Part shown: one piece after another, positions 1 to 23,894 of the stretch | Layout of the letters: the number at the start of each line of letters is the position of its first letter | Numbering within the stretch: the stretch's first letter is position 1 | From: Mytilus trossulus | Lineage: Eukaryota | Direction: 5' to 3' | DNA: 64,000 nucleotides | Assembly: GCF_036588685.1 (NCBI RefSeq) | Contig: NC_086378.1 | Span: 61,566,001 to 61,630,000 of the forward strand | Translations under genes and position numbers: made by a program | Notes under the pieces: model-generated | Seen by the model: the letters and a program-made list of their open reading frames with translations, nothing else | Databases searched by the model: none | What the model was told of the DNA's origin: nothing

Positions 1-2572
1 GTCGCAGACCACGAAAGCTAGTTTCGGAGCCATATCAAAACTGGAAAGACGCTATAACTGATTTAAAGCGACATGCATCATCCGAAACACATTTTAACTC
101 TATAGTAAGACTATCTGGGTTCCAAGAAACGTATATGAGACCAGAGTCTAGAATTGCAAATGCAAGGGGTGACACATTAATTGCGAAAAATCGACAGATT
201 TTGAAATCACTCATCAAATGTCTCGAGTTTTGTGGTAGGCGCGGATTGGCTCTTCGAGGCCATCGAGATGACGATAAAATCCAAGATAACACACAAGATT
301 ATAATATAGGTAACTATAAGGAACTAGTTAAGTTTCGCGCAGAGGCAGGTGACTCCATCTTGGATGACCATTTGAAACAATGTGCTAAAAATGCATCATA
401 TACGTCAAAAACTTCTCAAAATGAATTGTTAGCATGCATCAAGAGGTTTATCCAACAGACAATCGTTGATGAAGTAAAGGCTCAACCGCTTGGTCCACAT
501 TTCGGATATCAATGCGATGAGGTGTCGGATGCTAGTAACTGGGAACAACTCGGGATTGTTATACGATATCTTAGGGACGGTAGTCCAGTAGAAAAATTGC
601 TTGAATTTGTCCAAGCAGAAGAGACAACAGGCTCGGCACTTTGTGGTTTGATAGTAAAAGCTTTGACGGATGCTGGATTGGATATCCAGTTTTGTCGCGC
701 GCAGACCATGGATGGCGCTGGCAATATGTCTGGTAAGAATCTAGGTTGCGCGGCGCAGTTTACCCGACTGTCACCAAGGACAGTTTATCATTACTGCGCT
801 AGCCATAACCTCAATCTAGTACTATGCAAATGTTGCAATGTTCCAGAAATACAATTGATGTTAGATAGCTTAAAACAACTCGGGATATTTTTCAAGTATT
901 CTCCGAAACGGAGTCGATGTCTCGAAAAAGCTGTAGATGAGATAAATTCGAACAGGGATGTACAAAACAAAATAACAAAACAGAAATTTAAGGTCTTCTG
1001 TGAAACAAGATGGTGCGAAAAAATTACGACCCTCGGCAGCTTTTCTACCATGTACGAGCCAATCATATCTTGTTTGGAGGAAATTAGCTCTAACGTTGGA
1101 CGCACCTGGGACAAGAAAGCTGTTATTGACGCTAAAGGGCTACTTACAAAAATAACTGATTCTACTTTTATAGTTAGTTTCCAAACTGTCCACAACTTTT
1201 TTGGGTATGTTACAGGGTTGAGCAGAAAACTCCAAGGGTCTACACTCGATATTGTAGAAGGTTATAAAATGATTGATACCGTCAAAGCTTTAGTAAAAGC
1301 AACACGAGATGACGAAACGGAGTTTGACACCGTGTTTGAAAAAGCTACGGCAATGGCTGAAGTTGCCGATATTGGGGGTATCAAGGCTCCAAGACGATGT
1401 GGGCGCCAGACACAACGCAGTAATGTCCCTGCCGACAATGTTCAAGTTTATTACCGACGTGCAGTTTTTCTTCCATTTTTAGATTCTATGATTCAACAGT
1501 TCGAGATTCGGTTTGGTGAACGTGCTGTTTCAGTTGTAAGGGCATTGGCTCTAATCCCTAACAACATTCACCAAACCACAGATGAAGCAATCGACGACAT
1601 TATTAATTATTATGAAGTTGACATGCCATTTCCTGACTCATTTAGGCAAGAGTTTCGACTATGGAAAGAATTATGGCGTGTCCAGAATGAAAAACCGACT
1701 ACATTAACGTCTACTTTAACAGACCCAAGAGTGTGCAGGACGATCTTTCCTAACATCGTCAAACTCCTAGGTCTACTTTCATTGACAAGCGTCACGTCAA
1801 GTTCTACAGAAAGGGCAAACTCGTCCCTTAAATATATCAAAACCTTCTCGCGAAATACAATGGGAGAAGAACGTTTAAATGCCCTGTTGCTTTTATATGT
1901 ACACAAAAACATTAAACTTGACTACGAAAAAATTATTGACGATTTTTCTCGTAGAAATCCGAGGAAGATGCTTTTGGTCAATCCTATGGCTTAGCACTAG
2001 AAACTAAATAAAAAATGTTTTCTGTGGATTTATTTTTTAATGTAATGCATGAATAAAGTAAAACATCAGTTATATAAGTAGGTATAGTCAGATGCATCTT
2101 GGGTGTGCATCGCAAATTTGCGATGCATTCCTAAGATGCTAGTTGTGACCTATGACTTGGCTAGGGAGATTTTTCCATATAAAAAAGAAGATATGGTATG
2201 AATGCCAATGAGACAAATATCCATAAAATACCAAAAATTACACAAACATTAACAACTATAGGTCACCGTCCATGTCCACTTTTAAACGACAAATTTCACA
2301 TCAATTTTATGTACATAGCTTTTGATCCATTCAGTCAGTTGAATTTGTATAATAAACAATTAATGGGGAGAATACGACATCAAAAATGTCTAACCCATTT
2401 ACGTTTTCTATAAAACATACATGGTCCACGTCAGAAACCGTTAATTTGTACAATTTATACTTATTTTATGTTTTTAAGCCAAAAAAAAGGTCAAAAAAAA
2501 TTTTCGCCGCTCTCCGCTCGGCGAAGGTTGGGATCTACGCCCCCCCTTTCTTAAAACCTGGATCCGCCCCTG
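1..2572 (+). mobile_element. Autonomous hAT DNA transposon, right portion ending in TIR ...CCTGGATCCGCCCCTG
   Basis: Transposase ORF, AATAAA signals near 2007 and 2052, then terminus CCTGGATCCGCCCCTG ending at 2572. Related termini end at 6448, 20345 and 63898. Confidence 0.88.
3..1994 (+). CDS. hAT-superfamily transposase (TTF zinc finger end + DUF4371 + hAT dimerisation domain; P52rIPK/ZMYM1-like group), 5' end outside window
   Basis: The frame of ORF 135..1994 is open back to position 3 (RRPRKLVSEPYQNWKDAITDLKRHASSETH, TTF-type zinc-finger end). Motifs: GLALRGH, QCDEVSD (D1), QTMDGAGNM (D2), HYCASHNLNL (CxxH), ETRW, STERANSSLKYIKT..RNTMGEERLNALLLL (E and dimerisation domain). No stops or frameshifts. 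Confidence 0.95.
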   Translation, partial: RRPRKLVSEPYQNWKDAITDLKRHASSETHFNSIVRLSGFQETYMRPESRIANARGDTLIAKNRQILKSLIKCLEFCGRRGLALRGHRDDDKIQDNTQDYNIGNYKELVKFRAEAGDSILDDHLKQCAKNASYTSKTSQNELLACIKRFIQQTIVDEVKAQPLGPHFGYQCDEVSDASNWEQLGIVIRYLRDGSPVEKLLEFVQAEETTGSALCGLIVKALTDAGLDIQFCRAQTMDGAGNMSGKNLGCAAQFTRLSPRTVYHYCASHNLNLVLCKCCNVPEIQLMLDSLKQLGIFFKYSPKRSRCLEKAVDEINSNRDVQNKITKQKFKVFCETRWCEKITTLGSFSTMYEPIISCLEEISSNVGRTWDKKAVIDAKGLLTKITDSTFIVSFQTVHNFFGYVTGLSRKLQGSTLDIVEGYKMIDTVKALVKATRDDETEFDTVFEKATAMAEVADIGGIKAPRRCGRQTQRSNVPADNVQVYYRRAVFLPFLDSMIQQFEIRFGERAVSVVRALALIPNNIHQTTDEAIDDIINYYEVDMPFPDSFRQEFRLWKELWRVQNEKPTTLTSTLTDPRVCRTIFPNIVKLLGLLSLTSVTSSSTERANSSLKYIKTFSRNTMGEERLNALLLLYVHKNIKLDYEKIIDDFSRRNPRKMLLVNPMA

Positions 2573-3718
2573 AAGTCCTAGAGATCTTGGAAGAATAAGT
2601 AGAAGTTGAAAATGTGCACTCTCTTTCATAAATATTGATTTAAGAATTACTAAAATTTCAAAGTCTGTAAAAATGAGAAAAAAATCCTCAAACAATCCAG
2701 TAAAAGCAGATACACACATCTTCAGCATGTGTACAATCTTTCATAGAAGTTTTAGTATTTTGGTTGAAAACTCATACCGGTACTCTCTTTCATAAATTTT
2801 AGATGAATGACAATAAATTCCCAATGTAGAAAAAATTAGAAAGATTCCCCAAACAGTCTAATATTAGCTGGTGCAACTTCATCATGTTTACAATCTTTCT
2901 GTGAAGGATTTAGGTTTACAACTAGTACCTCTTTCATTTTTCTGAAATATTGACAAAAGTTCCCAAGCCTGAATAAATAAGAAAATATTCCTCAAACAGT
3001 CCATTATAGCAGGTGCACAACTTATATATGCAATCTTCATAAGAAAAACTTTATGTGTTGATTATTAAAATTACTTATCCTGACCCACATGTGTGGTACA
3101 TCAACAAATAAACCCGTTTTGAACTTCTTCCAACCTAGCCAATTATCTGTTCCATGACCACGTCTGCCAACAGGACCAATATGGTTAATAATAGAATAAT
3201 GGGTCAAATACAATTTTTGTTGCACCTGTGCTTGAATTTGCAGCATGCAAAACATAGTTATACTAATCTGGTTGCAGCAGCATAAACTATTTATTTAAAG
3301 GTTTATGTTTCAGAAGATAGAAGATGGATGCTACATACCTTCAATGAAGATACCTTATGTTACGAAATTTTTATCTGGCATTGTCCTTGACCTCATTTTC
3401 ATGGTTCAGTGAAGAAAAAAGGTTAAGTATAATACTCTCTTGTTATGAGTATTAGGATAACTATATTTTGTATATGGTTTCTTGCAAAGTCTACATGACC
3501 TTATTATTGGAATTCAGTGATCAAGATAAAAGTTACATGGTCAAGTCCATATGTCGGATATCATAGTATAAGCAATACATCAACTATATTTTGTCTATGG
3601 AATGACTGTTCATTGGACAATGCTAAGTTTTTGTGGATTGGTCTATTTCTCCGATACTTTTCTTAGATTTAAGCAATAGGGCCACTATATTTGGTTAATA
3701 TAATGCCATCTCGGGTGT

Positions 3719-4958
3719 ATATAAAATTGAGAATGGAAATGGGGAATGTGTCAAAGAGACAACAACCCGACCAAAATAAAAAAAAAACAACAGCAGAAGG
3801 TCACCAACAGGTCTTCAATGTAGCGAGAAATTCCCGCACCCGGAGGCGTCCTTCAGCTGGCCCCTAAACAAATATATACTAGTTCAGTGATAATGAACGC
3901 CATACTAATTTCCAAATTGTACACAAGAAACTAATATAAAAATAATACAAGACTAACAAAGGCCAGAGGCTCCTGACTTGGGACAGGCGCAAAAATGCGG
4001 CGGGGTTAAACATGTTTGTGAGATCTCAACCCTCCCCCTATACCTCTAACCAATGTAGAAAAATAAACGCATAACAATACGCACATTAAAATTCAGTTCA
4101 AGAGAAGTCCGAGTCTGATGTCAGAAGATGTAACCAAAGAAAATAAACAAAATGACAATAATACATAACAACAGACTACTAGCAGTTAACTGACATGCCA
4201 GCTCCAGACTTCAATTAAACTGACTGAAAGATTATGATTTCATCATATGAACCTCAGGCACAATCCTTCCCGTTAGGGGTTTAGTATCATACCATCATAA
4301 CATATATGAGAAGAACATAACCCGTGTCATGCCAACAACTGTTTTTAGAATAAATGTCTTTAGTTCCGACGCAAAGACCTTATCAGTGACTCAATATTAA
4401 CGCCAAAATATGCAATCTTTAATGACTTGACAACAGTATCGTAATTATATCCCTTCTTAATCAGTCTATTTAAAGGTTTTGTAAGTTTCTGAGGTGAATA
4501 CTGACACCTTTGTGCTTTATAAAGAATATTTCCATAAAAAACTGGATGTGAAATACCTGAACGTATAAAAAATCTGCATGTTGAGCTATATTTACGAATG
4601 ATGTCTTTATACCGATGATAAAATTTAGTAAAAGTTTTGACTAGTTTGTGATATTGAAAACCCTGGTGTAATAATTTTTCAGTAATACATAAATTTCTCT
4701 CGTTAAAATCTAAAACATTGTTACAAACACGAGCGAATCGTACAAGTTGAGATATATAAACACTGTAAGATGCAAGGGAACGTCACCATCTAAAAACGGA
4801 TAATTAACGATAGGAAATGAAAAATCATCCCTTTTATCATAAATTTTAGTATTCAGCTTTCCGTTAGTGTTATAGATATCAAGATCGAGGAAAGGGCAGT
4901 GGTCATTATTAGTATTAGCTTTATTTAAAGTAAGTTCAGCAGGATAAATTTCATTAAT
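3719..4958 (-). mobile_element. 5'-truncated Penelope-like retroelement (probably Naiad clade): RT C-terminus plus 3' UTR
   Basis: Minus-strand translation NEIYPAELTL..CPFLDLDI..TKIYDKRDDFSFPIVNYPFLDGDVP, frameshift near 4770, then SYSVYISQLVRFARVC..EKLLHQGFQYHKLVKTFTKFYHRY..RSLRRN* (stop ~4360). No C-terminal GIY-YIG domain. The 3' UTR recurs as a dispersed repeat elsewhere in the window. Confidence 0.85.
4244..4308 (-). promoter_or_regulatory. SECIS element (form 2) in the 3' UTR of the Penelope-like element
   Basis: Minus strand CAUAU-AUGUU-AUGAU-GGUAUGAU-ACU-AAA-CCC-CUAAC-GGG-AAGG-AUUGUGCC-UGAG-GUUC-AUAUG: helix 1, AUGA/UGA core, 8-bp helix 2, apical AAA and CCC/GGG mini-stem, ~50 nt after the ORF stop. 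Confidence 0.75.
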
Positions 4959-6293
4959 ACTAGAACACACCCGTGATATCGCGGGTCCATGACTGAATTA
5001 AAGTATTATATAACTATGCGCAAGCCTTATTTCAGTATTATTATTGTCATCTGATAAAGTCATGCTGATTATAAGATACACAGTTTTCTCTGTTAAAGTG
5101 TTTTCAAATCTTTCTGTTTGAACCCGTCGAACTTGAACTGTGATTAGTATTCGTTTTGTTATCTTAGAAAGTCTTGCTGGTTAAAATACTACAATAGGTA
5201 ACAATTTGGCAATGGTTGATGGAATTTAGTAGTGTCAACCCTGTGATTATGACCCGTGTAAATAACATAGTCTTAAATACACCGTTTGGTGGTGCTCCTG
5301 TCAGATGCGGTCAGTTATATTATAAGGGTATGGATCAATTGTGAGACATTCATGTCTGTCTGGTAGTGTTCATTGATCAATGATACTTTTCGAGATTTTG
5401 TCATCAAATCAGATACAAGAAACAATAGTTCAACTATGTTTGGTGTATAAAATGACTAATATGTACATGGCTGTTGTTTGCTCTATGGTCGGGAGGTTGT
5501 CGCTTTGACATATTCACCATTTCCTTTCTCAATTTTATGTCTGCCTAGCAGGGTACATATGACCTTGAACTCATTTTAATGGTTAAGTGGTTAATGTTAA
5601 GCTAGATTATTTATAACATACGGAGATACTTTAAAAGCAAACAAATTAAAAAGACAAGACCTAGAAATAAGTCAACATGGCCTAAATCATCTTTCGACCT
5701 TTTTTTATTTTGATAAAGTGAAATTTTAAATAGTAAACAGAATCCACAAGACAAGATAACTTAGGTGAAATTATCAAGTGTTTTGGTAAAACTATAGAGA
5801 TAGAGTGAAACTACAAATAGAAGAAAACATCAGAAAATACAAAATCGGCAGATTTTAGTGGTGGGTTTCGTGTTGCTTAGTCTTTAGTTTTCTATGTTGT
5901 GTACTGTTATTTGCCTGTTTGTCTTTTCTGTACATTGCTCGCGGTACGTTGATCTATCATCACCGCGCATTATTTTTCATTTATTAATACGTTTTCTTTA
6001 GGTTGTACCTTCTGGAAAGCCGTGGTGTTTATCGATGCTGATGACGAGATCACAACACATTAAAAACTTACAAAAGGCTTTACGAAATAAATAAACCTTT
6101 TACACGGAAATGAGACTACTATATTATAACACACATCTGTTATAGTAGTCTCAGCATATAATGATACTCAAAACATTAGTTTTCTGAATCACAATGGGCA
6201 AACTTGAATAATATAATAAGGAGACAACATCATTTATTATCAACGCTATCGAATGCCTGTAAGGACCTTAAAACATGTAAAGGTCTTGGTGTC

Positions 6294-6448
6294 CAGTGGC
6301 GGATCCAGAGGGGGGGGGGGGGGGTTCCGGGGGTGCGCACCCCCCTTTATTTTTGCCGATCAATGCATTTGTATCGGGACATATGTTTTGCACCCCCCTT
6401 TGCCCTGGGTTAGCACCCCCCTTTCGAAAATTCCTGCATCCGCCCCTG
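6294..6448. mobile_element. hAT-type MITE (155 bp) with 5-bp TSD GTGTC
   Basis: Ends CAGTGGCGGATCCAG / CTGCATCCGCCCCTG. GTGTC at 6289-6293 and 6449-6453. Confidence 0.88.
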
Positions 6449-7026
6449 GTGTCAACAACAAAAAAAAGCACTAGTCGTACATGAGTATGTTATTTGTCAG
6501 GAGCGTAACTTGGCATTTGTCGCTTTGCAACTGCAGCTCAATGATTCTCAATGTTTTTAGGCTATCATGGACATGTTTCCCAGAGCACGAACGTACAAAT
6601 TCGGAGTGCTAATGAGACAACTCTCCATCCAAGTCACAATTTGTAAAAGTAAACCAATATAGGTCAAAGTACGGTTATTATTGTCTGTAATATGAGGTAA
6701 GGATCATATTAATCCTGTCAGACAACATGATGATGTACAATATCATGCAATCATTCCATATATAAGAAAATGCCTGTACCAAGTCAAGAATATGACAGTT
6801 GTTTGATGTGTTTGAGCTTTTGGTTTTGCCATTTGAATAAGAACTTTCCTTTTTTATATTTCCCTTGGAGTTCAGTATTTTGGTTATTTTACTTTTTATA
6901 CTTGTGCTGCTGCTACTTATATCTAATTTTGGATTATCTAAACTTTTGACACAGAGAAATGCCTCACGTTTTGAAATTTTGGCGGTATGATGGAGATGTG
7001 ATGTTGAAATATAAAAAAAAGTAATA

Positions 7027-7221
7027 TTTACAGCCGATTCCATTGAGTGTGTAGGCAAAGGTATTATCTTTGGTTAGCTTGCTTACTAGCTGAACCTTGA
7101 AGTCATTATTAGGTAAGGGATACTATCCTCCTTTCGAAGTAGCCTAGTCTTACAAATAGATTGATTTGATATCTGTCAGACTACTACCTTTGCCTACACA
7201 CTCAATGCAATCGGCTATAAA
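7027..7221. mobile_element. MITE-like element with ~37-bp terminal inverted repeats
   Basis: TTTACAGCCGATTCCATTGAGTGTGTAGGCAAAGGTA is mirrored by TACCTTTGCCTACACACTCAATGCAATCGGCTATAAA. Confidence 0.7.
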
Positions 7222-7329
7222 CATGTACACTGCAAACCATTGAAAATCAAAGAATCACGACCGAAGATGCAGGGCTATTAAAGTAACCTCCATGATTCAT
7301 ATATGAAATGCTAATGCTTATGAAACTGC

Positions 7330-10300
7330 AATCAAACTCTTCGCTGAGCGCAGCCTGATACGACCATAGAGGTCGAATCCTGAACAGTTGGTGAAAGTTT
7401 GGACACAATATTCAAGCTTGATACGGTCTGACTTTTGATTGTGATCATATATTTGACATAGTATAGGTTTTTGACACAAAAATAACACTGAGCAATAAAC
7501 CGTGAAAATGAGGTCAAGATCAAATAAAATCTTGGCCACTGACGTATAGATCATAAAATATTTCCAAACATTTGAACACAAGTTATTGTTTGGAAACTAC
7601 AAACAAGAGTGTACACGCTGAAATGTCTCGCCTTCTTTATTAATTATTAATATTATGTTGATAGTCCTAAATATTAAGCTTTATTAAAAATGTCACATAA
7701 ACTTAACAATTTCATTAACCAAGAAAACTTAACAGTGACCAATGAACCATAAAAATGTGGTCAATGCAAGGTCAGATAAACCATGCCAGGTAGATTTGTG
7801 CAGCTAACAATTCTTCCATACAACATATATACTAGTAATATGTCGACCTATTCAGTGGTTATTATTTAAGAAAAACAGACCAAAACACAAAATCTTAACA
7901 CTGAAAAATTAACTGTGAAAATGAGGTCAAGGTCAAATAAAACCTGCTCTTTTGATATATATAGATTCTAAAATATTTGCATACACCAAACATAGTTGAC
8001 CTATAGCATTAAAGTATTAGAAAAAAAGACCAAAAAATCAAAAATTAACTTTGAGCACTAAACCATGAAAAAGAGGTCAAGGTTAGATGAAACCTGCAAA
8101 CTAGACATGTACACCGTACAATCATTCCATACACAAAACATAGTTGTGCTATTGCATGCAGTATAAGAAAAACAGACCAAAACACTAAAACTCAACACTG
8201 AACCGTTAAAATGAGGTCAAGGTCAAATACAAGCTTATCGACTGACATATAGATTATAAAAAGTTTCCATACACCAAACATAGTTGACCTATTGCATAAA
8301 GTATTAAAAAAAAGACAAAAACTCAAAAACTTAACTATTTTAAACTACTGAACCATGTAAATGAGGTCAAGGTCATATGACACCTGCCAGATGTGCATGT
8401 ACACCTTATAGTCTTTCCATATACAGAATACACTAGACCTACTGCTTATTGTATATCCTATATATGGACGTGACCACCATCGAAACTTAACCTTGTTCAC
8501 GGATCAATGAAATGAGGTCAAGGTCAAGTGAACACTGTCTGAAGGACACGAGGACATTGCAAGGTACGCACATACCAAATATAGTTATCCTATTACTTAA
8601 TAAAGAGAGAATTTAACATTAAAGTTAATCTTAACTTTGTTTCAAGTAGTCACTGAACCATGAAAATGAGGTCAATGACATTGGACAGACAGAAACTTCG
8701 TAACATAAGGCATCAATAAACAAAGTATGAAACTTCCAGGTCTTCCAACTTCTTAAATATAAAGCTCTGAAGAAGTTAGCTTATGCTGCCGCCGCCTCCA
8801 GATCACTTTCCTATTTCGAACTTTCTAAGACAAAAGTCGCAGGCTCTGCTCGATAAAAATGGTGATTTTTTTTTCTACTTAAAAATTACAAAACGTTTGG
8901 GGCAATCACCCTCAAACTCAATCCCAGCTTTCCCTTAGTGATATGGAACCTTGTGGTACACTTTCAAAGAGATCCATAAACTTATACACAAGCTATTGTT
9001 CGGGAACTAGAAAAAATTGCTTCGCTGAGCCTGAACAGTTTGGGCAAATTTGGACACAATATTCAAGCTTGATGCTATCTGAATATGGATTGTGATCAAA
9101 TTTTTGACATAGTATTGGTTTCCGACACAAAATAAATGTCAAGATGTTACAAATCTATTGCTTAATACTGTGCAATTAAAGATTCTTCTTAAATTAAAAA
9201 AAATTGAATTTTGAAAAATAATTTGAACCCCTAAACAAAAATTGGAACCCTCCAAACTTTAAAGAAAAACCTTGGAGCAATAACCCCCACACTAAATCCT
9301 ATCCTTTTCTTTGTAGTATGGAACCTTGCAGTACAATTTCAGAGAGATCCATACTCAAGTTATTGTCTCGAAACAAGAAGAAAAAAAAACTTGGTTTTGA
9401 CCCTTTTTTGGCCCCTAATTCCTGCATATATTGGGCAATTACCCATAACTCAATCCTAGCCTTCCTTTTGTAATAATCCCAGCCTTAATTTTGTGATATG
9501 GTACCTTGGGGTAAAATGTTAGAGAGAACAAGAAACTTTGTCCAGAAACTACAAAAATGCTTGTTTTTGGCCCTTAATTCCCAAACTGTAACCCATAACC
9601 CCCAAAATAAATCCAAACCTTCCACTTGTGGTACAATTTTCAAGCAATTTTAATAATTATATATATATACACAAGTTATTATCCTGACAGTAGAAAAATG
9701 CTTTTTGGTCCCTATTTGGCCCCCAATTCCGAACCGGTTGGGACCATCATCCCCAACCTTCCTAGTAAATTTAGAGATCCAGACTGAAACTTAAGTCCAA
9801 ATATGTCTTCAGACTACGCAGAAGACGACAACATACCATCATATGTATAAAAATGCTTGTTTTTTTACCCTAATTCCGCAACAGTTGAGGCAATTATCTC
9901 AAGAAATCAATCCCAGCCTTGCCATTGTGAAATGAAACCTTGTGTTACAATTTTAGAGCGACCCGTACACGTCTACAAAGGTTAATGTCTGGAAACTAGA
10001 CAAATGCTTCTTGTATTGCCCCTTATCCCTAAACATTTGAGGCAATCACTCCTAAACTCAATCCCAACCTTCTCTTTGTGATATAGAATCTTGTGGCACA
10101 ATTTTAGAGAGAACAATACACTTAAACACCAGTTGTTTTCTGGAAACTAGACAAATGCTTGTTTTTTGGCCCCTAATTCCTAAACTGTTGGTACCATAAC
10201 CCCTAAAATAAATCCCAACCTTCCTTTTGTGGTATTGAACCTTTAATATGATAAAATGTCATAGAGATCCATTAAGTTAAACTAAAGTAATGGTGCGTAA

Positions 10301-10360
10301 ACCTTTGGACGACGACATGATACCAATATACGACTTCAATTTCTTTTTGCAGTCATATAA
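7330..10360. repeat. Nested Helentron/HINE-like non-autonomous elements with two internal ~150-bp tandem arrays
   Basis: AAAATGAGGTCAAGGTCA recurs at roughly 150-bp spacing (~7505-8670) and GGCCCCTAATTCC-type units recur at ~9410-10170. Head TTCGCTGAGC..CTGAACAGTT..GGACACAATATTCAAGCTTGAT is duplicated (~7340, ~9022). Short terminal hairpins at ~8835 and ~10330. Family assignment is inference. Confidence 0.65.
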
Positions 10361-12090
10361 AGATATTATCGACTTTTCATATGTGGTTCCTTTTGAACTA
10401 ACCTAAAGTCCTAAACACAAAATTTCACTTGTAAACTCTAAAAAAGTTTCAAAGTCAGTGAACCATAATGATGGGGTGAGGCTATATAAACTCCATGGAA
10501 ATGCGACTTGCATATACCAATACAATATACCGGATATCATTGACCTGGAATTAGGTCTTTATGGCTTAAACTAATCTAATCAATCATTAACAAGTTAAAA
10601 ATACAAAACATGATTGAATTGGTGTATGTGTGTGTAATGATTGAGCCAAACAATCTCCAGGGATATGAGATGTGCCAATGCCAACACATCCATTGACCTT
10701 ACACCTCAGTGTTTACCATCAACTTGACCTCATTAACTTTAACATATTCTAATAATACAAAACATGACTGAAATTGGTGTATGTGTGTGTGTAGAGATAG
10801 AGCCAAACAATCTTCAAGGATATGAGATTGTAACATCCAGCTGCATACCAAATATCATTGATGGTGACCTACCACTATAGTTTCCCTGAAACTGACCTTA
10901 TCAAATTAATACATGTAATCTAAGAAAACTTTAAGAAGTCAATAGACCAAAGATAATCAGGTGCACTGAAACTATATCTTTTTGTCAAAGCAGATATTGT
11001 TTAACTCATTAATTGAAGTAGAGGAAACAGGAAATATTAGTCTTTTTGTCATTTTGACTGTCAGATGTTAGTCCTCCTTTTATTCCTTGATCTTGATGAT
11101 TAATTTCTGTACAAGTTGCATAGCAATGAATAAAAGTTAAAAAATAATTCATGTCAAAAAATCAGTTGTAACAGGTCAACAGTTTATATAAGGAGTTATA
11201 TAATGACATGTTTAACATGTTCTTTTAAAAAAAGGCAAAATATAGTCATAATAGTACGAGAATGATAACATTTTTTTATTTACAGAAACTTCAACTTGTA
11301 AACAGTGAATTTCAATATCAACACATCATAGATATAATTAAACAAACAATAAAAAGCCAACATAGACAATAAAAGGCCATACTAGCTGGATTTTGTACTT
11401 TGGATTTTCAAGCATTATTTAATGTTATTAATAAAGTTATCATCTTTTTAGCATGTACAATATTAAAATATCTACATCATTTATAAAGATCTAATATTAA
11501 TTCATTTGTCTATCAGTGTTCTGTATTTCAAATTTATTAGAGTTATTTCCCTTTTATATGAGTATTTTAGAACAATATTTGGGACTTTGTCCTTTCAATT
11601 CTTTTTATTATTTGTATTTTTGATTCAAACTTGTTTTTTTTTTTTTAAATATCCCAATTACATTTTTAACTGCTTTCTTTATACAGGTACACAACTAAAG
11701 CAGTTGAATTAATATCACGCCTCAATTATCCTTGCACAAAAAAATAATTCCAGAAAAGGAGAAAACTCTGTACAAACTTTAAAATATAAAAATCAGTTCT
11801 ACATATTTCAGATAAACAATTAAAAAGTTTTCCCCAATTTTTTTAAATCCAAGTTCATTGTCAATAAAACATGTTTTTTGTTCTTTTCTGAGATGTAAAA
11901 TCATAACTTATACCAATTTTAGCACATTTTGTGTGCAGACTTATGGAATCACTCATAAAATGCACATCTGACATTTTTCATTTCACATGAACAATACACA
12001 AGATACACACATAAAGACAAGAAGAACTTGCAAAACTTACACAAAAATGTAGAACTGTGAAAAAAAATAATAGAGCAACATTTATAAATA

Positions 12091-12292
12091 CTGTAAATTA
12101 ATTCAGAAATTATTGCATGCATTTATTATTGTTATTTTGTCATTATAGACTAATATGCAATTTTTATTTTTGCTAAAATGAGAAAAATTCTATTAAAGTT
12201 ATATAACTAAATTTCAAAATGCAAGTTTGAATTATTGCAATTATAACCCTGTTGCAATAAAAAAAACATCGCAATAATTTCTGAATTTACAG
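12091..12292. mobile_element. TA-flanked MITE (Tc1/mariner-like) in the presumed zinc-finger gene 3' UTR
   Basis: TA|CTGTAAATT(AATT)CAGAAATTATTGC ... GCAATAATTTCTGAATTTACAG|TA. Confidence 0.7.
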
Positions 12293-12771
12293 TAATTGAA
12301 TCTGATCATGAATACATACATTAACAAATATTAATTATATTTAATTTTGAGATGTCAAATTGTACCATGATCATACATTTGAAAAATGTAATGAAATCCT
12401 TGAAAAAAATACAAAATTTGGTAAAAATAATTTGCATGAAGGAGTGAATCTTGTGACTTTGAAATAAATAATACAGTACACACAATATAGTTCAGTTACT
12501 AGTAGTAAATTTGGTATTTAGTGAATCACTGTGAATCAGGGTACTGGTATAGAGATTAATAATTTGATAGAAGTTTGATTTGATGCCTGCCCTGTCTTTT
12601 TCATATATCAAAAACAACTGTTAACACTTGAAGTAATACATGTGAATGTACAGATAGAGATAAATTAAACCAAAACACCAGTCATGCCGGTATTCCCTGT
12701 GAAAAAAAACCCAAAACCCACATGTTTAACTTAATCACCATCAATGTTATTGTATAATACAGTATTGCTTA

Positions 12772-15648
12772 TTATTCTCTATTAACAACAATAATAATCT
12801 TCCCATCTGTTCCCGATTCTACATGAGCATTTGAAAATAACCTATTTAACCAATCAGCGTCTACAATAGTTTCTTCTGTTGTTATTTCTTCACCTCCTAA
12901 AATGCTTTCTTCAACATTTACTACCTCAGCAATTATTGTTTCCTCTTCTTTGGAGACAGGAATGTTCTCTGCTGAGATATGTTCCTGCTCATGCTCTTCT
13001 GTTATTACCTCAGCTATCATGTCTCCTTCATGCTCAACAGCATGAGCATCTAGTTTGGTTTGACTCGTAAAAACTTGACGACAGATGCTACAAATATACA
13101 AGCAGCTAAACTCCCTTTTATCCATTAATTCATCCAGGCTTTCAACAGTCTTGACATTAGGCATTACTTGCTTGGTGTAGTACACGTTTGGCTTAATTTG
13201 GCAAGCATTCAGCTTCCTGTGGCGCTGGAGCGAATTTAGTCTTGGGAAACACTTCTGACATAAATCACACTGATAAGGCATATCACCAGTATGCATGCGC
13301 ATGTGATCATTAAGAGCCTTTTGAGTGGCAAACATTTTAGAGCATTGATCACATGGTATAGATTTGACTTGCTCATGTCTTGCTAAGTGACGTGTCAAAT
13401 AGTACAGCAAAGCAAAGGATTTCCCACAAAATGTGCATTCATGCTTTTTAATTGATGAATGGATCTCTTCATGGATCTTCATGTATCCTTCTTGAGCAAA
13501 TCCTTTTCCACATGTACTACATACAAATGGCTTTTCCTTAGTGTGTGTTCTCTCATGGATACGTAGTAAGCATGGCTTAGTGAATTTCTTGTCACAATAA
13601 CTACAATGATGTCTGGGTTTGGCTAAGCCTTCGGCTGTGTGATTTTCTTTGATGTGACGAGACAGGTATATGTCACGGGAGTATTTCTTACCACATGTTT
13701 TGCATTCATGATTTCTTGATGTTGCAGGATCAGTGTGGGTCAGAATATGGCGCTGCAAATTAATTTTCTGATGAAAATTTCTTCCGCATGTTTCACAGAC
13801 AAACTTTTTGGGATTTGAGTGAAGTCTTTCATGAGCATTTAGGTATTTAACTGAAGAATAACATTTTCCACACTGCAAACATTTAAAAGGCTTCAATCCA
13901 ATATTTTCTCGCTGTTTCTTCCCAGGTTTTGGAATAGGTGTATTCTGATGGCGCTGCACATGTATCTTCAAGTAGCATTTCAAAGCAAATTTTTTGTGGC
14001 AAACATGACACTCATAATCTTTTGTCTTAGTATGAAGAAATTCATGGTTTATCCTGTTCATTCGTTGCGAGAACTTCTTCCCACAAATTCTGCATTCATA
14101 ACACTTTCCTTTAACATGACGTTCCATATGTTTCTGGAGGTAGAGACGTTTGGAGAATACTTTTCCACATTGACTACAAAGGTGGTGTTCAGGTTCTGGA
14201 AATATTCCCATCTTCTCATTTCTTTCTTTTTCATGTAACATTTTATGTCTGACTAAATAAGAGCTAAGGGCAAAGGCTTTACCGCATTCATCACAAATCT
14301 TGGCTTTCACTCCAGAATGTAATACTCTATGTTTTTCCATGTTGGATTTAGAGACAAATCCTTTGCCACATACATCACAAGGAAAAGGTCTTTCTCCAGT
14401 ATGTTTGACCTGGTGTCGGAGCAAGTGACTGGGTTTTGTGAAGACCTTTTGACAATCCTTACAAGGGTAAGTCCTTCCAACTTTTTTACGTCCTCTTTTA
14501 ACTGCAGGCTTTATTATTTCTATATCTTCATCCCTATCATTGGGTTTATAATCTTCATCTAGGTCATCATCATCTTCAGATTCTTCATTATAAACTGCTT
14601 TTGTTGCTGGAGTATTTACTTCCCCTACATGTACTGCTTCAGAAGTTATATCCATATCTTCCGGTGTCTCTGGGTGGTCTTCTTCTGTTATTGATTCAGT
14701 TACTCCTTCTTCAATGGTCACTGGACCTACTGTTTCTCCTGGTTCCAAGTCACTCACCTCCACCTTACAAATCTTAGCTGGCTTATTTAATCCAACTTTA
14801 GTACTGACTGAAGGCTTTGAGATCTCATTATAAACAGCCAGTTCCACTTCCATTTTTACATTTGACATATTCGGCATAATCTGCTCTTCCATGTCTTCAT
14901 AATCTATTGGTTCCTGTTTTATACTAGCTTCTAATATAATACTATTATCATTAGATGGAGACCATGCTCTTTTCTCCCTTCTGTTTCTTCTCGGTCTTCC
15001 TCTTTCATCAGTATCAGTCTGACTGTCAGAAATGGAATCTTCAGTCTGTTCATGTATTTTCTTTTGAACAGATTTTTTGTTCTTCACTGACCCAGTTGTT
15101 TGCTTGGCGCCTTTCTTTTCAATGCTTGTATTTATCTTTCTCTCAGCAAACAATTTTTTCCTTGCCTCCTTCATATCGGTAGGGACATTATTTACAGGCT
15201 TAAGCTTGCTTGCTTTATTTTCACTGCTTTCCACATTTGTGGCAACACTTTTCCTCGGTCTTCCCCTTTTTCTCTGTCCATCCCCTCCAGCAGACATCTC
15301 TGATTTGTTCTCTTTCGTTTTATCCACTTCATCACTACCTTCATTTTTCTCTACATTTACTTTCGAACCTTTTTTGCTCTTTTTCTCTTCACTTTCAATG
15401 ACATCTATAGACTTTCCAGCACTTCTTTGTGGTCTTCTACCAGGGAGAGATTTTGGCGATTGTACATCTTTAGTTTCAAGTTTAGTGTCTGTCTTGTTTG
15501 ATAACATTTGCAAATCATGCTGTGTTTTTAAATGTTTTGACAGAATTGCTGGTAAAGAAAATATTTTCTTACAAACAGGACATGCATGTTTATCTATTTT
15601 GGAGGATCTTCTGGTGTACTTTAGCAGATAAGAATTCTGTACAGACAT
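12772..15648 (-). CDS. C2H2 zinc-finger protein with AT-hooks (958 aa, ~16 fingers), CDS in a single exon
   Basis: One N-terminal finger, AT-hooks KRGRPRK and RGRPRR, SUMO-consensus IKQE/VKME, acidic region, 14 clustered fingers (TGERP/TKEKP/TGDMP linkers, last one C2HC) and one C-terminal finger. Strong acceptor TTTTTTTTATATTTGCAG ends at 15687, with an in-frame TAA 21 nt before the ATG. AATAAA at ~11275-11280. Confidence 0.95.
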   Translation of the reverse strand: MSVQNSYLLKYTRRSSKIDKHACPVCKKIFSLPAILSKHLKTQHDLQMLSNKTDTKLETKDVQSPKSLPGRRPQRSAGKSIDVIESEEKKSKKGSKVNVEKNEGSDEVDKTKENKSEMSAGGDGQRKRGRPRKSVATNVESSENKASKLKPVNNVPTDMKEARKKLFAERKINTSIEKKGAKQTTGSVKNKKSVQKKIHEQTEDSISDSQTDTDERGRPRRNRREKRAWSPSNDNSIILEASIKQEPIDYEDMEEQIMPNMSNVKMEVELAVYNEISKPSVSTKVGLNKPAKICKVEVSDLEPGETVGPVTIEEGVTESITEEDHPETPEDMDITSEAVHVGEVNTPATKAVYNEESEDDDDLDEDYKPNDRDEDIEIIKPAVKRGRKKVGRTYPCKDCQKVFTKPSHLLRHQVKHTGERPFPCDVCGKGFVSKSNMEKHRVLHSGVKAKICDECGKAFALSSYLVRHKMLHEKERNEKMGIFPEPEHHLCSQCGKVFSKRLYLQKHMERHVKGKCYECRICGKKFSQRMNRINHEFLHTKTKDYECHVCHKKFALKCYLKIHVQRHQNTPIPKPGKKQRENIGLKPFKCLQCGKCYSSVKYLNAHERLHSNPKKFVCETCGRNFHQKINLQRHILTHTDPATSRNHECKTCGKKYSRDIYLSRHIKENHTAEGLAKPRHHCSYCDKKFTKPCLLRIHERTHTKEKPFVCSTCGKGFAQEGYMKIHEEIHSSIKKHECTFCGKSFALLYYLTRHLARHEQVKSIPCDQCSKMFATQKALNDHMRMHTGDMPYQCDLCQKCFPRLNSLQRHRKLNACQIKPNVYYTKQVMPNVKTVESLDELMDKREFSCLYICSICRQVFTSQTKLDAHAVEHEGDMIAEVITEEHEQEHISAENIPVSKEEETIIAEVVNVEESILGGEEITTEETIVDADWLNRLFSNAHVESGTDGKIIIVVNRE

Positions 15649-18600
15649 TATGGCTTCTTTTAAGCATTAAAAGGAACCTTTTCTCTCTGCAAATATAAAA
15701 AAAAAATAACAGTTAAAGCATGAAACAGAATCGAAAATTTTGTTCAAGTTTAGATGGTTGTTTTTCTGAAATTGTTCAGTGTACGCTCAATTGTGTTGAT
15801 ATGTCTTTTGATTGAGTTAAGCCATTTCAATTGATATTATATAGTGTGTATTTCCAGCGATTTCTATGTTGTATACATAAAAATATACAGCATGTACAGT
15901 GTATTCCATTTTCTGGCTACATGTATGTTTCATGGCCAGAATAAGCACATACAATTTCTCAAACTAATTAGGTGTCAATACATTACTTGTAAATTTCAAT
16001 TGAAGCTGTGAAAATAAGTATTGATCTCTCAAATAATATTCAAAATGGTTTTTTTTATTTGTCCAAAACATTATATATATCATTTAAACAGTGTTCTCCC
16101 CAGGCCGTTTTAGCGCCACGATTTTCAGCGCTATCTCAATTTCCCGCTGTCCTTTTGCACTGACCACGTCGCTATATTTTTTTCCCGTATTTTTTCAAAT
16201 TTCCCGCTTATTTTTCTCTTCGGATCACGTGATTGACTGGTTTACGATTTTTTTAAAAATTATTTCCTTGTATTAAAGTAACTCCGCGGGACCAGTCTAA
16301 TAAATAAGTATTGATCTCTCAAATAATATTCAAAATGTTTTTTTTTATTTGTCCAAAACATTATATATCATGATTAAATTACCAGCCTTTTAACATGTTT
16401 AATCTATTCTTTGATCAATTTCTATTTCAATCCTATTCTTTTAACAATAAAAATAATTTTGGTCATGTTTGACTTACTTGTAGATCTCACTTTGCTAAGA
16501 ATTATTGTTTTATACAGTTTAAAAAAATGTATCTCTATCTATAGTAATATTCAAGATAATAACAAAAACTGCAAAATGTCCTTAAAATTACCAATTTAGG
16601 GGCAGCAACCCATGAAGGGGGTTGTCTGATTCATTTGAAAATTTCCAGACTGATAGATCATGACCTGATAAACAATTTTACCTCATGTCAGATTTGTTCT
16701 AAATGCTTTGATTTCAGAGATGCAAGCCAAAATGTAGATTTTACCCCTATGTTCTATTTTTTTGCCATGGTTGTCATCTTGGTAAGCAGACCAGTCATCA
16801 GACAAATATTTTTAACTACATACAGCAATGATGATTGTGTCAAAGTTTGGTTAAACTTGGTTTAGTAGTTTCAGAGAAGATTTTTGTAAAAGTTAATGAA
16901 CGACGACAGACACCAAGTGATGAGAAAAGCTCACTTCAATGGCCCTTTTGGGCAAGATGAGCTTAAAATAGAATTTGATCTATTTTTGTTCAAACTTTAA
17001 TCAAAGAGAAGTAGTGAAATAATAATTCTCTCTAAGTAGTCAGTATGGTACAAATTTGTCAAAATAAGCTATTGATAAAATAAACATTGATGATGAATTG
17101 TTATGCTTCAGTGCTTTCCTATATAACTTTAAGCAACCAAATTTTTCACACGAAAAGGGGGCCCGTGCAGCCCTGGATCCACCTATGCCTAAAGATATGT
17201 GTATGGGTTAAACAAATTATTTTCTTTTAAAACAAAGTGTATACAGTATTTATAGCCCCTTTTCTTTTTTAAATGTTTCGTATTAAAAGTTAGCTATTCA
17301 GTGATATGATATGAGCCACTCCAGGCAGGACACAGTATACGTAATTATTTTCTTTTGATTTTTTCTCGACAAATAGTGTGAACAGTACAACTTTTTTAAT
17401 CACACACCTTCAAATATATTTATTTATATTTTAAGAGTAAGATAGTATTTAGGTAGGGGAATGAAATCTCACATTAAAAAAATTGGGGTGATGTATTGGT
17501 ATTTAAAGGATTGATTTGGCCCTGTCCAAGTTCAAAAATGTCAAAAACTAGTATGAGGGGGGCAGAACCTTTTTTCTGGTGTTTTTTTCGGGATTGATCC
17601 TGTCAGGATCTGGGATTTCTATTTTCAAATTTTAGAATGTTGGGATTTAATTTTTTGAATTCAGGGCCTTGCATGGGATTTTATGCTTTTAAGCCCAGGA
17701 TTTCAGGATCAGAAAAAATGATTTTTCACCACTTTATTTTAAACAGAGAATTGTCATTTATATTTTGAATGAGAACTGACAGACTTTTTTTTTTTAAATT
17801 ACAATGTATTTCAAGTTTTGGCATAATTTGTCCTAAAAGTAGTACAAGTTAAGTCAACTCAATGTAAAACTCAATATGAGATAGCCCAGGGGCAAATTTA
17901 AATTTGAATTTATATTGTTTTAAAGAAATTCACACAAGAAATTAACTGCAGTGTAATTCCTTGTAATTTGGACATGGAAAAATATAATCCAATATTTATA
18001 ATGTATTTGTAGACAATGGTAGACAAATGGTAGATGTCACAACAAAAATATACAATACAAAGATGTACATTAACCTTACAACATGTTCATATCTTCCTAA
18101 ATATTTAGATAAAAATTAAACATTCACATGTATTCACCCATACCTGCCAACTATCACTATTTGCAGGGGTTTCCCCCATGGAGGCTCCTAATTGGAAATA
18201 GTTAGGGGTAACATGAATGACCGAATAACACCTTTTGATATTATCCATTAACACTTGTATAAACATGATAAATGACCGAATAACACTTAAAATTTTAATA
18301 TTAGCACATTTTGGTGACTTTTAAATATTGATTATTAAATAATAGTATATTATAAGTGTAGTTGATAACTTAAAAAGAATGTGTCCCTAGTACAAAGATG
18401 CCCCATCTGCATTATCATTTACTATGTTCAATGGAGCGAGAAAATTGGGTAAAAACTCTAATTTGGCATTGACATTAAAAAGATCATATCATAGCTTAGG
18501 GAACATGTGAACTAAGTTTCAAGTTAATCATTGTTAATTGGACTTTCACTTCATCAAAAACTACATCTACAGACAACTTTAACCTGAAGCGGGACAGATG

Positions 18601-22116: not shown

Positions 22117-23559
22117 CTTTCAAAGGCATATTTCCACACTAAGTCACAAATTTGACTTTAACTGATTCAAAACTTAGCAGTAAAAGTTAAAATTGTGAAT
22201 ATTAATTCTGAACTCCAAATTTTTCATCGGTAACAAGTTATCAAGAATTTTATAATCATTTTGAGTCTGTCGTCAGAACAAAGAAAACACATCGACTCCG
22301 AGAAACAATCCAAGTGTTATTTAAATTGGAGTTTGCAACTTTTTCTATTGACAGTTTCGTCCTCTCGGGGGGGGGGGGGGGGGGGGGGGGTCTTCAACTC
22401 AATATTTGAAATGATAGGCCGGTGCCGCTTGGTTTTCCATAAAATGCGATGTAGAAATGTTACCTTTTCCAATAGTGTTTGGGTCTCGTTTGTTGTGAAA
22501 TGTAACACAATGGAATGGAATACCAAGGTGCCAAAAGAGAGAAAATAGGTTGATGAAACACAGCCGGGAACACCAAGAAAGATGGCAGACGAAGTTATGG
22601 AAACTTTATTAACCTTATCATACATTGCTGATTGTTTTCCGAACCAATAATATTCACATATTTTCAAGCTTGAAAAGGTGACCTATTCCAGCGATATTTT
22701 GTATGCTGACATATTCTTATCGCTATCAACATGGAGCTTGACAAGACCGCACACGTTGACAATCTCTCACCACTCATGCATAACTTCTCAGTTTGCCGAG
22801 TTTTCAGACGGCTCAGGGCAGAAAAGGGAAGGTTCAATTTCCAGCAAACACTCGTCACTAGGAGAGTTAATAAGAGCAAAAGATTACGTCTAGCGTTTGG
22901 GTAAAAATTCCTAAAGTGCTTATATAACAGGTTGTTAAAGGGCATTGGGAAATACTTTCTATATATGTTTCTTTAATTTGTTTTTAAATAGTTAAATCGA
23001 GTTCCATATATATATATAAGGCTCGGCCGGACCTAAACGGGTCCAAGTGAAAATCGAACGGGACCTCTATTTTGTCATTTGTATCAACATATTAAAATTA
23101 TAAAACCAATGATTTAAAGATGACAGCCATTGACAACATTTTATCAAAATTTCCCACAAAAAAAGGGGGTGTGGGCCCATCCCACCCCTGGATCGGCCTA
23201 TGGATTTTCTTTTTGCAGAGTTAAGAGTACCAGAGTTCTTTATTTTATAAGTGGAATGTGTGGCCAAATGAGACAAAAATCCAACATCATAAAAGACAAC
23301 TGACCGACGTAAATGGTAGTGCTGAACTTAAAGTGCGATGTGAACCTTTACTCTTGGGGAAAGCCCCACTTTGACTTTGCGATGAACAACACCATATTCT
23401 TTAGTTATGTCAAGTTGGGGTTTTGTCAAATTCGTGTTCTGATCTTCTGTAATAAATTAACATATTGCTGTATATCTTTTTTTCCATTATCTACATGTCA
23501 ACAGTTCAATAATAGCTGACTGGATGTATAAACAAAAACATATAAAACAAAACACGACT

Positions 23560-23882
23560 AACCCCGGCGCATTTTTGCGCCTGTCCCAAGTCAGGAGCCT
23601 CTGGCCTTTGTTAGTATGGCATGTTTTCTTATTTTAGCTCATTTTTATGTTTTGAAGTTTAATATATGTGACGTCAATTTTCTCTGAACTAGTTTACAAT
23701 TATATTTAGGAACCAGCTGAGGACCACCTCTGGGTGCGTGATTTTCTCGCTGCGTTGACTTTGTTAGGGTTGTTGTCTGTTTGACATATTCCCAATTTCC
23801 ATTCTGAATTTTATTTTAACCGAATCTTTGGTTGGGTTTGTTGTCCCTTTGGAACATTTCTAATTTCCATTCTCAATTCTTT
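23560..23882 (+). repeat. Dispersed copy of the Penelope-like 3' UTR repeat (also ~5470-5538, ~28190-28322, ~33605-33820)
   Basis: GCGCCTGTCCCAAGTCAGGAGCCTCTGGCCTTTGTTAGT..CCATTCTCAATT is the reverse complement of ~3720-4000. Confidence 0.8.
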
Positions 23883-23894
23883 TCTTGTTTATTA

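What the first reader, a model, noticed from the sequence alone, without database searches (positions are those of the whole stretch)
4244..4308. SECIS hairpin in a retroelement 3' UTR: selenoprotein-encoding transposon family
Seen: a form-2 SECIS-like fold ~50 nt after the stop of a Penelope-like RT ORF that lacks a C-terminal endonuclease. Established: Naiad Penelope-like elements have an N-terminal GIY-YIG, and some are reported to encode selenoproteins through a 3' SECIS. Inference: full-length copies should have in-frame UGA codons, and truncated copies spread SECIS elements that could allow UGA recoding if they land in host 3' UTRs.
Basis: partly seen in the sequence, partly recalled or inferred. 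Interest (0 to 1): 0.7.

Follow-up and report, generated by a model that had tools for sequence, protein, structure and literature searches.

The report
Selenocysteine signal in mussel Naiad transposon
This selenocysteine-insertion-type RNA hairpin sits in the tail of a broken copy of a very common jumping gene of a likely mussel; intact copies carry four in-frame UGA "stop" codons at conserved cysteine positions and likely use the hairpin to read them as selenocysteine, a trick already published for related clam and spider elements.

Summary
Confirmed. Window 4244-4308 (minus strand) matches the eukaryotic SECIS model (30.7 bits, cut-off 35), 51 nt behind the stop codon of a dead, 5'-truncated Naiad Penelope-like copy (3721-4959). 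Full-length copies encode a 1002-aa endonuclease-RT interrupted by four TGA (28/31, 28/31, 31/31, 43/43 copies), all at cysteine columns of homologues; dN/dS is about 0.1 or lower in every segment. The upper helix covaries at 10 of 10 pairs across 16 relatives; a co-resident all-Cys Naiad family has no SECIS (0/26 loci). The genome has two tRNA-Sec genes and about 2,800 copies of this hairpin. Selenoprotein Naiads and the idea of SECIS donation to host genes are published (Craig 2021, clams and spiders); I found no mussel case in print. Additions: a second family here with five TGA, including a site not in that paper; one broad UGA-bearing clade that includes a clam-like element; site turnover; one apparent reversion to all-Cys. 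Sec incorporation is inferred, not measured. Host 3' UTR capture is untested; this copy carries a minority core variant (70 vs 2,772). The scan already found this family on other DNA of this genome. New member of a known kind.

The parts
3721..4959 (-). 5'-truncated, dead copy of a selenoprotein-type Naiad Penelope-like retrotransposon (about codons 809-1008 of the full frame plus 3' UTR); none of the four TGA sites is included
   Evidence: 97% over 1247 columns to full-length copy L109; 40 of 40 scored genome copies 97-100%
4360..4959 (-). Remnant of the RT/C-terminal coding region, broken by a 4-nt deletion near 4772; TAA stop at 4362-4360
   Evidence: ORFs 4710-4997 and 4360-4782 in two frames; alignment to L109
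4244..4308 (-). Form-2 SECIS-type hairpin, 51 nt behind the stop codon
   Evidence: RF00031 30.7 bits; fold; covariation across relatives
4294..4298 (-). 5' side of the SECIS core (AUGAU)
   Evidence: sequence; U12, G13, A14 invariant in 16 of 16 aligned hairpins
4257..4293 (-). Helix II (4293-4284 with 4266-4257), unpaired AAA (4282-4280) and apical mini-helix (4279-4277 with 4271-4269)
4253..4256 (-). 3' side of the core, UGAG in this copy; a minority variant (family majority UGAU)
   Evidence: 70 vs 2,772 pattern matches; 11 of 66 typed loci carry it, all on one subfamily background
3721..4243 (-). Rest of the 3' UTR; in full-length tandem copies the same stretch, hairpin included, also stands upstream of the ORF as a pseudo-LTR; no hammerhead matched
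   Evidence: L033 carries two SECIS matches, 1292-1356 and 5308-5372

Best explanation
The hairpin is a SECIS-type element in the 3' UTR of a Naiad retrotransposon whose full-length copies carry four in-frame UGA codons at conserved cysteine positions, and it likely makes ribosomes read these as selenocysteine so that the whole endonuclease-reverse transcriptase is made. Shown: hairpin, its position, the four UGA, purifying selection on all segments, host tRNA-Sec genes. Inferred: the host SECIS-binding protein and Sec elongation factor act on the element's RNA; three Sec residues stand in for cysteines of the two Zn-finger-like motifs and the site before GIY-YIG, one lies after the DKA motif; failed recoding gives a truncated protein without RT, so mobility would depend on selenium supply. 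Copying starts at the 3' end and usually stops early, which scatters SECIS-bearing tails. The window copy is such a passenger: it encodes nothing and most likely does nothing here.
For: TGA at frame positions 61, 92, 103, 528 in 28/31, 28/31 (3 TAA), 31/31 and 43/43 distinct copies, while every other position has a stop in at most 2 copies. The same columns hold Cys in 96/98, 103/108, 108/110 and 114/119 non-gap homologues. Between two subfamilies (pS 0.14-0.28) dN/dS is 0.03, 0, 0.10 and 0.12 in the four segments and all four TGA are kept. With TGA read through, AlphaFold gives a confident 1002-aa model (pLDDT 88) whose best structural matches are telomerase RTs. RF00031 matches in 11 of 12 loci of this family (the twelfth is interrupted just behind the stop) and 0 of 11 loci of a co-resident all-Cys Naiad family; own model R1: 0 of 26 such loci. 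Helix II: 10 of 10 pairs with two-sided change, 94% of cells paired in 16 hairpins; slid controls 36-53%. Two tRNA-Sec(TCA) genes in G000. Positions 92, 103 and 528 are those reported for clam Naiad_Mmer and Naiad_Scon (PMC8557442 section 8 and supplement).
Against: No direct evidence of Sec incorporation. The window hairpin scores below the Rfam cut-off and has a non-consensus last core base. 14 of the 16 hairpins in the covariation set were picked by a descriptor that demands at least 8 of 10 pairs, so pairing is inflated; the apical mini-helix is only 70% paired. Three metagenome loci with TGA and 3' sequence (L218, L225, L228) gave no R1 match at E <= 1 (L225 18 bits). The all-Cys control is one family, not 26 independent cases. 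Pfam found neither GIY-YIG nor RT in P0001 itself; the domain call rests on motifs, homologues' precomputed Pfam and fold. RNA reads are from another organism and mostly reflect passive transcription of 3' tails on both strands.
Confidence: 0.9

Rival explanations
1. The UGA codons are passed by another route (leaky near-cognate read-through as Cys/Trp/Arg, or A-to-I editing to UGG), and the hairpin is a kink-turn protein-binding site with another job in transposition.
For: A sheared GA core is also a kink-turn; the hairpin is present in pseudo-LTR position upstream of the ORF too; two of four UGA are followed by C.
Against: The codons sit only at Cys columns, never TAG/TAA as the fixed state; the contexts share no common read-through motif; the hairpin keeps the AUGA-helix-AAA-GA spacing of a SECIS and is absent from the all-Cys family. 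Four leaky steps in series would give almost no full-length protein (inference).
Confidence: 0.05
2. The family is non-autonomous: the TGA are inherited nonsense changes in a dead master copy that is mobilised in trans by the co-resident all-Cys Naiad, and the hairpin is a relic.
For: An intact all-Cys Naiad family with 1056-aa open frames lives in the same genome; Cys codons are one change from TGA.
Against: dN/dS near 0.1 downstream of every TGA between subfamilies; a second family 62% identical keeps four of the same TGA plus one more; relatives down to about 40% identity stop at the same columns (60 of 120 end at 527, 16 of 120 at 390).
Confidence: 0.02
3. The family is a selenoprotein element, but this particular copy has been exapted as the SECIS of a host transcript (the upstream zinc-finger gene on the same strand).
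For: Same strand as the C2H2 zinc-finger ORF at 12772-15666; thin sense-strand RNA coverage continues behind its stop (2-6x at 10502-11865).
Against: 8.5 kb from the stop; the 964-aa frame has no in-frame TGA and ends in TAA; zero coverage at 3000-3340; reads are from another organism that may lack the insertion. Upstream exons of that gene were not examined.
Confidence: 0.03

Closest known systems
Naiad_Mmer (Mercenaria mercenaria) and Naiad_Scon (Sinonovacula constricta), selenoprotein-encoding Naiads of clams; Craig et al. 2021, PMC8557442
   Same: N-terminal GIY-YIG + C-terminal RT, DKA and CxC motifs; UGA at the Cys before GIY-YIG, the first Cys of CCHH and the Cys after DKA; SECIS behind the stop. 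P0231, by eye nearly identical to the visible part of Naiad_Mmer, falls in the same clade.
   Different: A fourth UGA at the second Cys of the CX2-5CxxC motif (Cys in both clam families; reported only for spider Naiad_Sdum); hairpin 51 nt behind the stop instead of 1-21 nt; predicted form 2 instead of the reported type I; about 40% identical protein in the region compared (P0231); host is a mussel. A second family here adds a UGA at the first Cys of the CxC linker, a site the paper does not list.
Naiad_Mgal / Naiad_Mcor, the published Mytilus Naiads (PMC8557442 supplement)
   Same: Same clade of elements and same host genus; the co-resident family L110-L139 matches their visible N-terminal sequence by eye.
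   Different: All-Cys, no SECIS, 37% identical to the window's family; the paper lists no selenoprotein Naiad for mussels.
Naiad_Sdum / Naiad_Smim (Stegodyphus spiders), PMC8557442
   Same: Multiple UGA and a SECIS; Sdum also uses the second Cys of the CX2-5CxxC motif.
   Different: Reported as an independent origin with reduced IFD; they do not use the CCHH site. Their sequences were not in my trees, so the relationship was not tested.
Eukaryotic SECIS, Rfam RF00031 / SECISearch3 definition (PMC3753652, PMC2761289)
   Same: AUGA and GA core, about 10-bp helix II above the core, apical AAA, type 2 mini-helix.
   Different: Window copy 30.7 bits, under the 35-bit cut-off (other copies 30-43); last core base G instead of A/U in this copy.

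Membership tests
Naiad Penelope-like elements | Single ORF with N-terminal GIY-YIG endonuclease and C-terminal RT | tested here: met
   1002-aa frame with IIYLLT..IQYVGETG near the N-terminus and YLDD in the RT; homologues carry PF01541 and PF00078; model matches TERT folds. Pfam on P0001 itself found neither.
Naiad Penelope-like elements | CX2-5CxxC motif, CCHH motif, KR-rich block, CxC linker, DKA motif | tested here: met
   All present in P0001/P0324 with U in place of three EN cysteines (definitions)
Naiad Penelope-like elements | 5' truncation, partial tandems forming pseudo-LTRs, 3.4-4.4 kb body, high copy number | tested here: met
   Variable 5' ends; L033 tandem with a unit of about 4.0 kb; about 2,800 hairpin matches
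Naiad Penelope-like elements | No canonical hammerhead ribozyme | tested here: met
   No hammerhead match at E <= 10 in L109, L033, L213, L193
Naiad Penelope-like elements | Placement inside the published Naiad phylogeny | tested here: inconclusive
   Published sequences were visible only as cut text and were not entered; placement rests on database relatives that resemble Naiad_Mmer and Naiad_Mgal by eye
Selenoprotein-encoding Naiads | Fixed in-frame UGA at conserved Cys positions | tested here: met
Selenoprotein-encoding Naiads | SECIS immediately behind the ORF | tested here: met
Selenoprotein-encoding Naiads | Host has Sec machinery | tested here: met
   Two tRNA-Sec(TCA) genes; SBP2 and eEFSec genes were not searched
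Eukaryotic SECIS (RF00031) | Score over the Rfam gathering cut-off (35 bits) | tested here: not met
   Window copy 30.7 bits; four other copies of the family pass at 40-43 bits
Eukaryotic SECIS (RF00031) | Core UGAN/KGAW, helix II, apical AAR | tested here: inconclusive
   Met by the family majority (UGAU/UGAU); window copy has UGAU/UGAG
Eukaryotic SECIS (RF00031) | Directs Sec insertion / binds SBP2; SECISearch3 grade | not testable with these tools
   Needs a reporter or binding assay; SECISearch3 is not available here

The most novel reading that the evidence does not exclude
Selenoprotein Naiads are not four oddities but one old, wide lineage of marine-invertebrate elements in which Sec sites are gained, swapped and lost, whose mobility is gated by host selenium; in mussels their thousands of scattered SECIS tails have already given at least one host gene UGA recoding (a new selenoprotein or a stop-codon read-through isoform). 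The lineage part is supported here; the selenium gating and host capture are untested.
Probability: 0.15. Interest if true: 0.8.

Novelty: new member of a known kind. Interest (0 to 1): 0.42.

Why it matters
It extends the only described class of selenoprotein-encoding transposons from clams and spiders to mussels, where two young, abundant families (four and five UGA) sit beside an all-Cys family in one genome: a ready comparison for asking what Sec does for a transposon and whether selenium supply controls transposition. About 2,800 near-identical SECIS copies make the open question of how genes acquire a SECIS (raised in PMC8557442) directly countable in annotated mussel transcriptomes. In practice these elements look like stop-riddled pseudogenes and will swamp SECIS-first selenoprotein searches in mussels: all 4 genome-wide RF00031 matches returned were transposon copies.

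Tried and rejected
Folding energy as evidence: z -0.86 and -1.12, uninformative. Pfam on the window remnants and on P0001: no RT or GIY-YIG match. Profile search of PDB sequences: 0 matches. Pfam scan of alignment A3: over the size limit, not repeated. Run search: no RNA holder listed on record. Reads of organism D on full-length copy L080: coverage along the whole ORF, sense-biased in the 5' half in X22 (about 3-7 fold), mixed in X21 and X24; reads only 85-99% alike, and the four TGA places were not among the 40 difference rows shown of 571, so editing was not tested. Reads on window 3000-13200: cannot place this copy in a host transcript. dN/dS against the second family: synonymous sites saturated in three of four segments, only the 0.15 for 104-527 is usable. 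Weak snoR09, snoZ266 and miRNA Rfam matches are far below cut-off and were dismissed. L033, the first full-length copy read, has TTA at position 61 and so shows only three TGA; it is a minority (3 of 31). No protein-complex job was sent. Not in print as far as searched: (PMC open-licence and bioRxiv only); Repbase/Dfam entries and subscription journals could not be searched.

Full report
Observation. It has AUGA, a 10-pair helix with one mismatch, unpaired AAA, a 3-bp apical mini-helix and a 3' GA, and begins 51 nt behind the TAA at 4362-4360. Its folding energy alone is not remarkable.

What it belongs to. The stretch 3721-4959 is 97% identical to the 3' end of a dispersed repeat. It covers about the last 200 codons, has a 4-nt deletion near 4772, and lacks the 5' two thirds of the element. 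An exact 45-base core occurs 1,264 times in the 1.3-Gb genome; a 33-place pattern that admits the main subfamily variants occurs 2,772 times with the 3' core UGAU and 70 times with the window's UGAG; reversed-pattern controls gave 0. The UGAG copies examined (11 of 66 typed loci) share one subfamily background, so the variant was probably copied from one source (inference). The host is inferred to be a Mytilus mussel: a co-resident family matches the visible part of Naiad_Mgal/Naiad_Mcor in the supplement of PMC8557442 by eye.

Full-length copies. Read with TGA as a residue, they give one frame of 1008 codons (1002 from the first Met) with a GIY-YIG-type endonuclease, KR-rich block, CxC linker, DKA motif and RT. 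TGA stands at frame positions 61, 92, 103 and 528 in 28 of 31 (3 TTA), 28 of 31 (3 TAA), 31 of 31 and 43 of 43 distinct copies; any other position has a stop in at most 2 copies (copies were the best-scoring ones, not a random draw). In a second sample all 74 of 74 scored copies had at least one TGA inside the RT-side match. Among 120 homologues the four columns hold Cys in 96 of 98, 103 of 108, 108 of 110 and 114 of 119 rows with a residue. Between two subfamilies with pS 0.14-0.28, dN/dS is 0.03, 0, 0.10 and 0.12 for the segments before, between and after the TGA codons, all four of which are kept (the partner L213 is a metagenome contig, 93% identical in protein). AlphaFold gives a confident model (mean pLDDT 88) whose best matches are telomerase RTs, as expected for a Penelope-like element.

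Link between UGA and hairpin. RF00031 matched 11 of 12 loci of this family (the twelfth is interrupted right behind the stop) and 0 of 11 loci of the co-resident all-Cys family. A second family in the same genome, 62% identical, has five TGA: positions 61, 92, 103, 391 and 528 in 16, 19, 19, 18 and 20 of 20 loci, and its own hairpin 143 nt behind the stop (RF00031 29.3 bits, z -3.6, folded without the mini-helix). A metagenome scan gave 65 loci; 16 distinct hairpins, including the window's, align with invariant UGA, AA and GA, and helix II shows two-sided change at 10 of 10 pairs with 94% of cells paired, against 36-53% for slid controls. Caveat: 14 of the 16 were picked by a descriptor that demands pairing (background 2 other sites in 128 kb), and the mini-helix is only 70% paired. 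A model built from them matched 20 of 44 further metagenome loci at E <= 1, at or near the ORF end where that end was mapped (several are near-identical to training rows; several misses lack a 3' end; L218, L225 and L228 have TGA and 3' sequence but no match), 0 of 26 all-Cys loci (one family), and only this site in the window. The genome holds two tRNA-Sec genes.

Breadth of the lineage. Of 120 shorter database relatives, 60 end exactly before position 528 and 16 exactly before 391 (some of the 60 are fragments of this same family), and several translated with W show it at 61, 92, 103, 391 or 528. In a 187-row tree all rows that stop at these sites or carry W at several of them form one clade of 70 rows (SH-aLRT 99; two outside rows have a single W). 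The clade holds P0231, by eye nearly identical to Naiad_Mmer. Sister families of the window's family carry a stop at 391 and Cys at 528, so sites turn over. One all-Cys cluster (P0146) nests among stop-bearing families; in a 30-row tree chosen after seeing the first, the clade has support 100/99 and excluding P0146 is rejected (p-AU 0.0002). With all-Cys outgroups this reads as reversion, but I have only the predicted protein, not its DNA, and hosts are unnamed.

Mechanism. Shown: hairpin, position, fixed UGA at Cys columns, selection on the whole frame, tRNA-Sec. From established knowledge of eukaryotic Sec insertion (recalled; PMC2761289 passages): a 3' UTR SECIS binds SBP2 and recruits the Sec elongation factor. 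Inferred: the element's RNA is recoded four times to give the full endonuclease-RT; otherwise translation ends before the RT, so activity would track selenium. Copying from the 3' end with early termination spreads the hairpin. The window copy is a passenger. It is on the same strand as a C2H2 zinc-finger ORF 8.5 kb away that has no in-frame TGA and ends in TAA; RNA reads from another organism do not show whether the copy is transcribed with it.

Comparison with what is known. Craig et al. 2021 (PMC8557442; I saw the abstract, sections 6, 7 and 8 whole, passages of others including section 16, and search hits in the supplement, where sequences were cut at about 400 letters and figures were not visible) describe four selenoprotein Naiads, two clams and two spiders, and propose SECIS donation to host genes. 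This family works like them and meets the sequence tests for membership. It differs in host, in a fourth site known only from a spider family, in spacing and in predicted SECIS form. PMC3753652 and PMC2761289 were seen as passages, bioRxiv 10.64898/2026.07.22.740005 as passages with no mention of SECIS; the other papers only as search listings. Four searches found no mussel selenoprotein Naiad in print. Earlier notes of this scan, read after my own reading was formed, report the same family from other pieces of this genome; they are not independent support.

Verdict. Real, well supported, and a new member of a known kind. Interest 0.42: the concept and the donation hypothesis are published; the added value is the mussel case with an internal all-Cys control, the five-UGA family, the breadth and turnover of Sec sites, and a copy number that makes host capture countable.

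Noticed in passing
L191-L210 (e.g. L193, G000:C6:19977600-19982700): Second selenoprotein-type Naiad family in the same genome, 62% identical, with five TGA including the first Cys of the CxC linker, and its own SECIS-type hairpin 143 nt behind the stop.
   Followed up: yes
P0146/P0004 cluster: All-Cys family nested inside the UGA-bearing clade: apparent reversion from Sec to Cys; DNA not available to check codons or SECIS loss.
   Followed up: partly
L233, L231, L225, L228, L220, L246, L242/L243, L238: Metagenome relatives with other UGA sets: only position 528 (L233), 103+528 (L231), 92+528 (L225), and extra TGA at 393, 318, 440, 928 or 575; single contigs, so some may be copy-specific breaks.
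   Followed up: partly
L246:1787-1847: A related family's hairpin also has a UGAG 3' core, so the window's variant may be tolerated.
   Followed up: no
window 3-1994 (+): Intact-looking 663-aa hAT transposase-like frame (DUF4371, Dimer_Tnp_hAT), open at the window start.
   Followed up: partly
window 12772-15666 (-): Single large exon of a multi-C2H2 zinc-finger gene, transcribed in organism D.
   Followed up: partly
window 7433-10501: Arrays of about 150-nt repeats with strongly one-sided RNA coverage (minus-strand RNA) in three stranded runs.
   Followed up: no
window 5486-5538, 23550-23886, 28190-28322, 33766-33820; 6759-6898, 32895-33028, 41706-42008, 51266-51383, 53210-53318, 56756-56992: Short 3'-end fragments related to the Sec family (first group) and stretches similar to the all-Cys Naiad locus L114 (second group); none includes the hairpin.
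   Followed up: partly
window about 33900-42700 and 51650-61000 (-): Tandem duplication, 17-18 kb spacing, 71-84% identity, of a multi-exon gene with immunoglobulin-like-looking exons (by eye; Pfam gave no match for two exons).
   Followed up: no
L110:452-515 and 4722-4785; L228:4555-4618; L248:2415-2464: Weak twister-P1 matches (22-24 bits, cut-off 67) in the tails of other Naiad families; none in the window's family.
   Followed up: no
P0311: A database protein named 'sulfotransferase 1A1-like [Mytilus edulis]' contains 54 residues 85% identical to this element's endonuclease region: exon capture or a gene-model error.
   Followed up: no
G000:C10:63843916 onward and 64461689 onward: Tandem arrays of about 0.9-kb units each holding tRNA genes (tRNA-Ser and tRNA-Cys in the neighbouring locus L176).
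   Followed up: no
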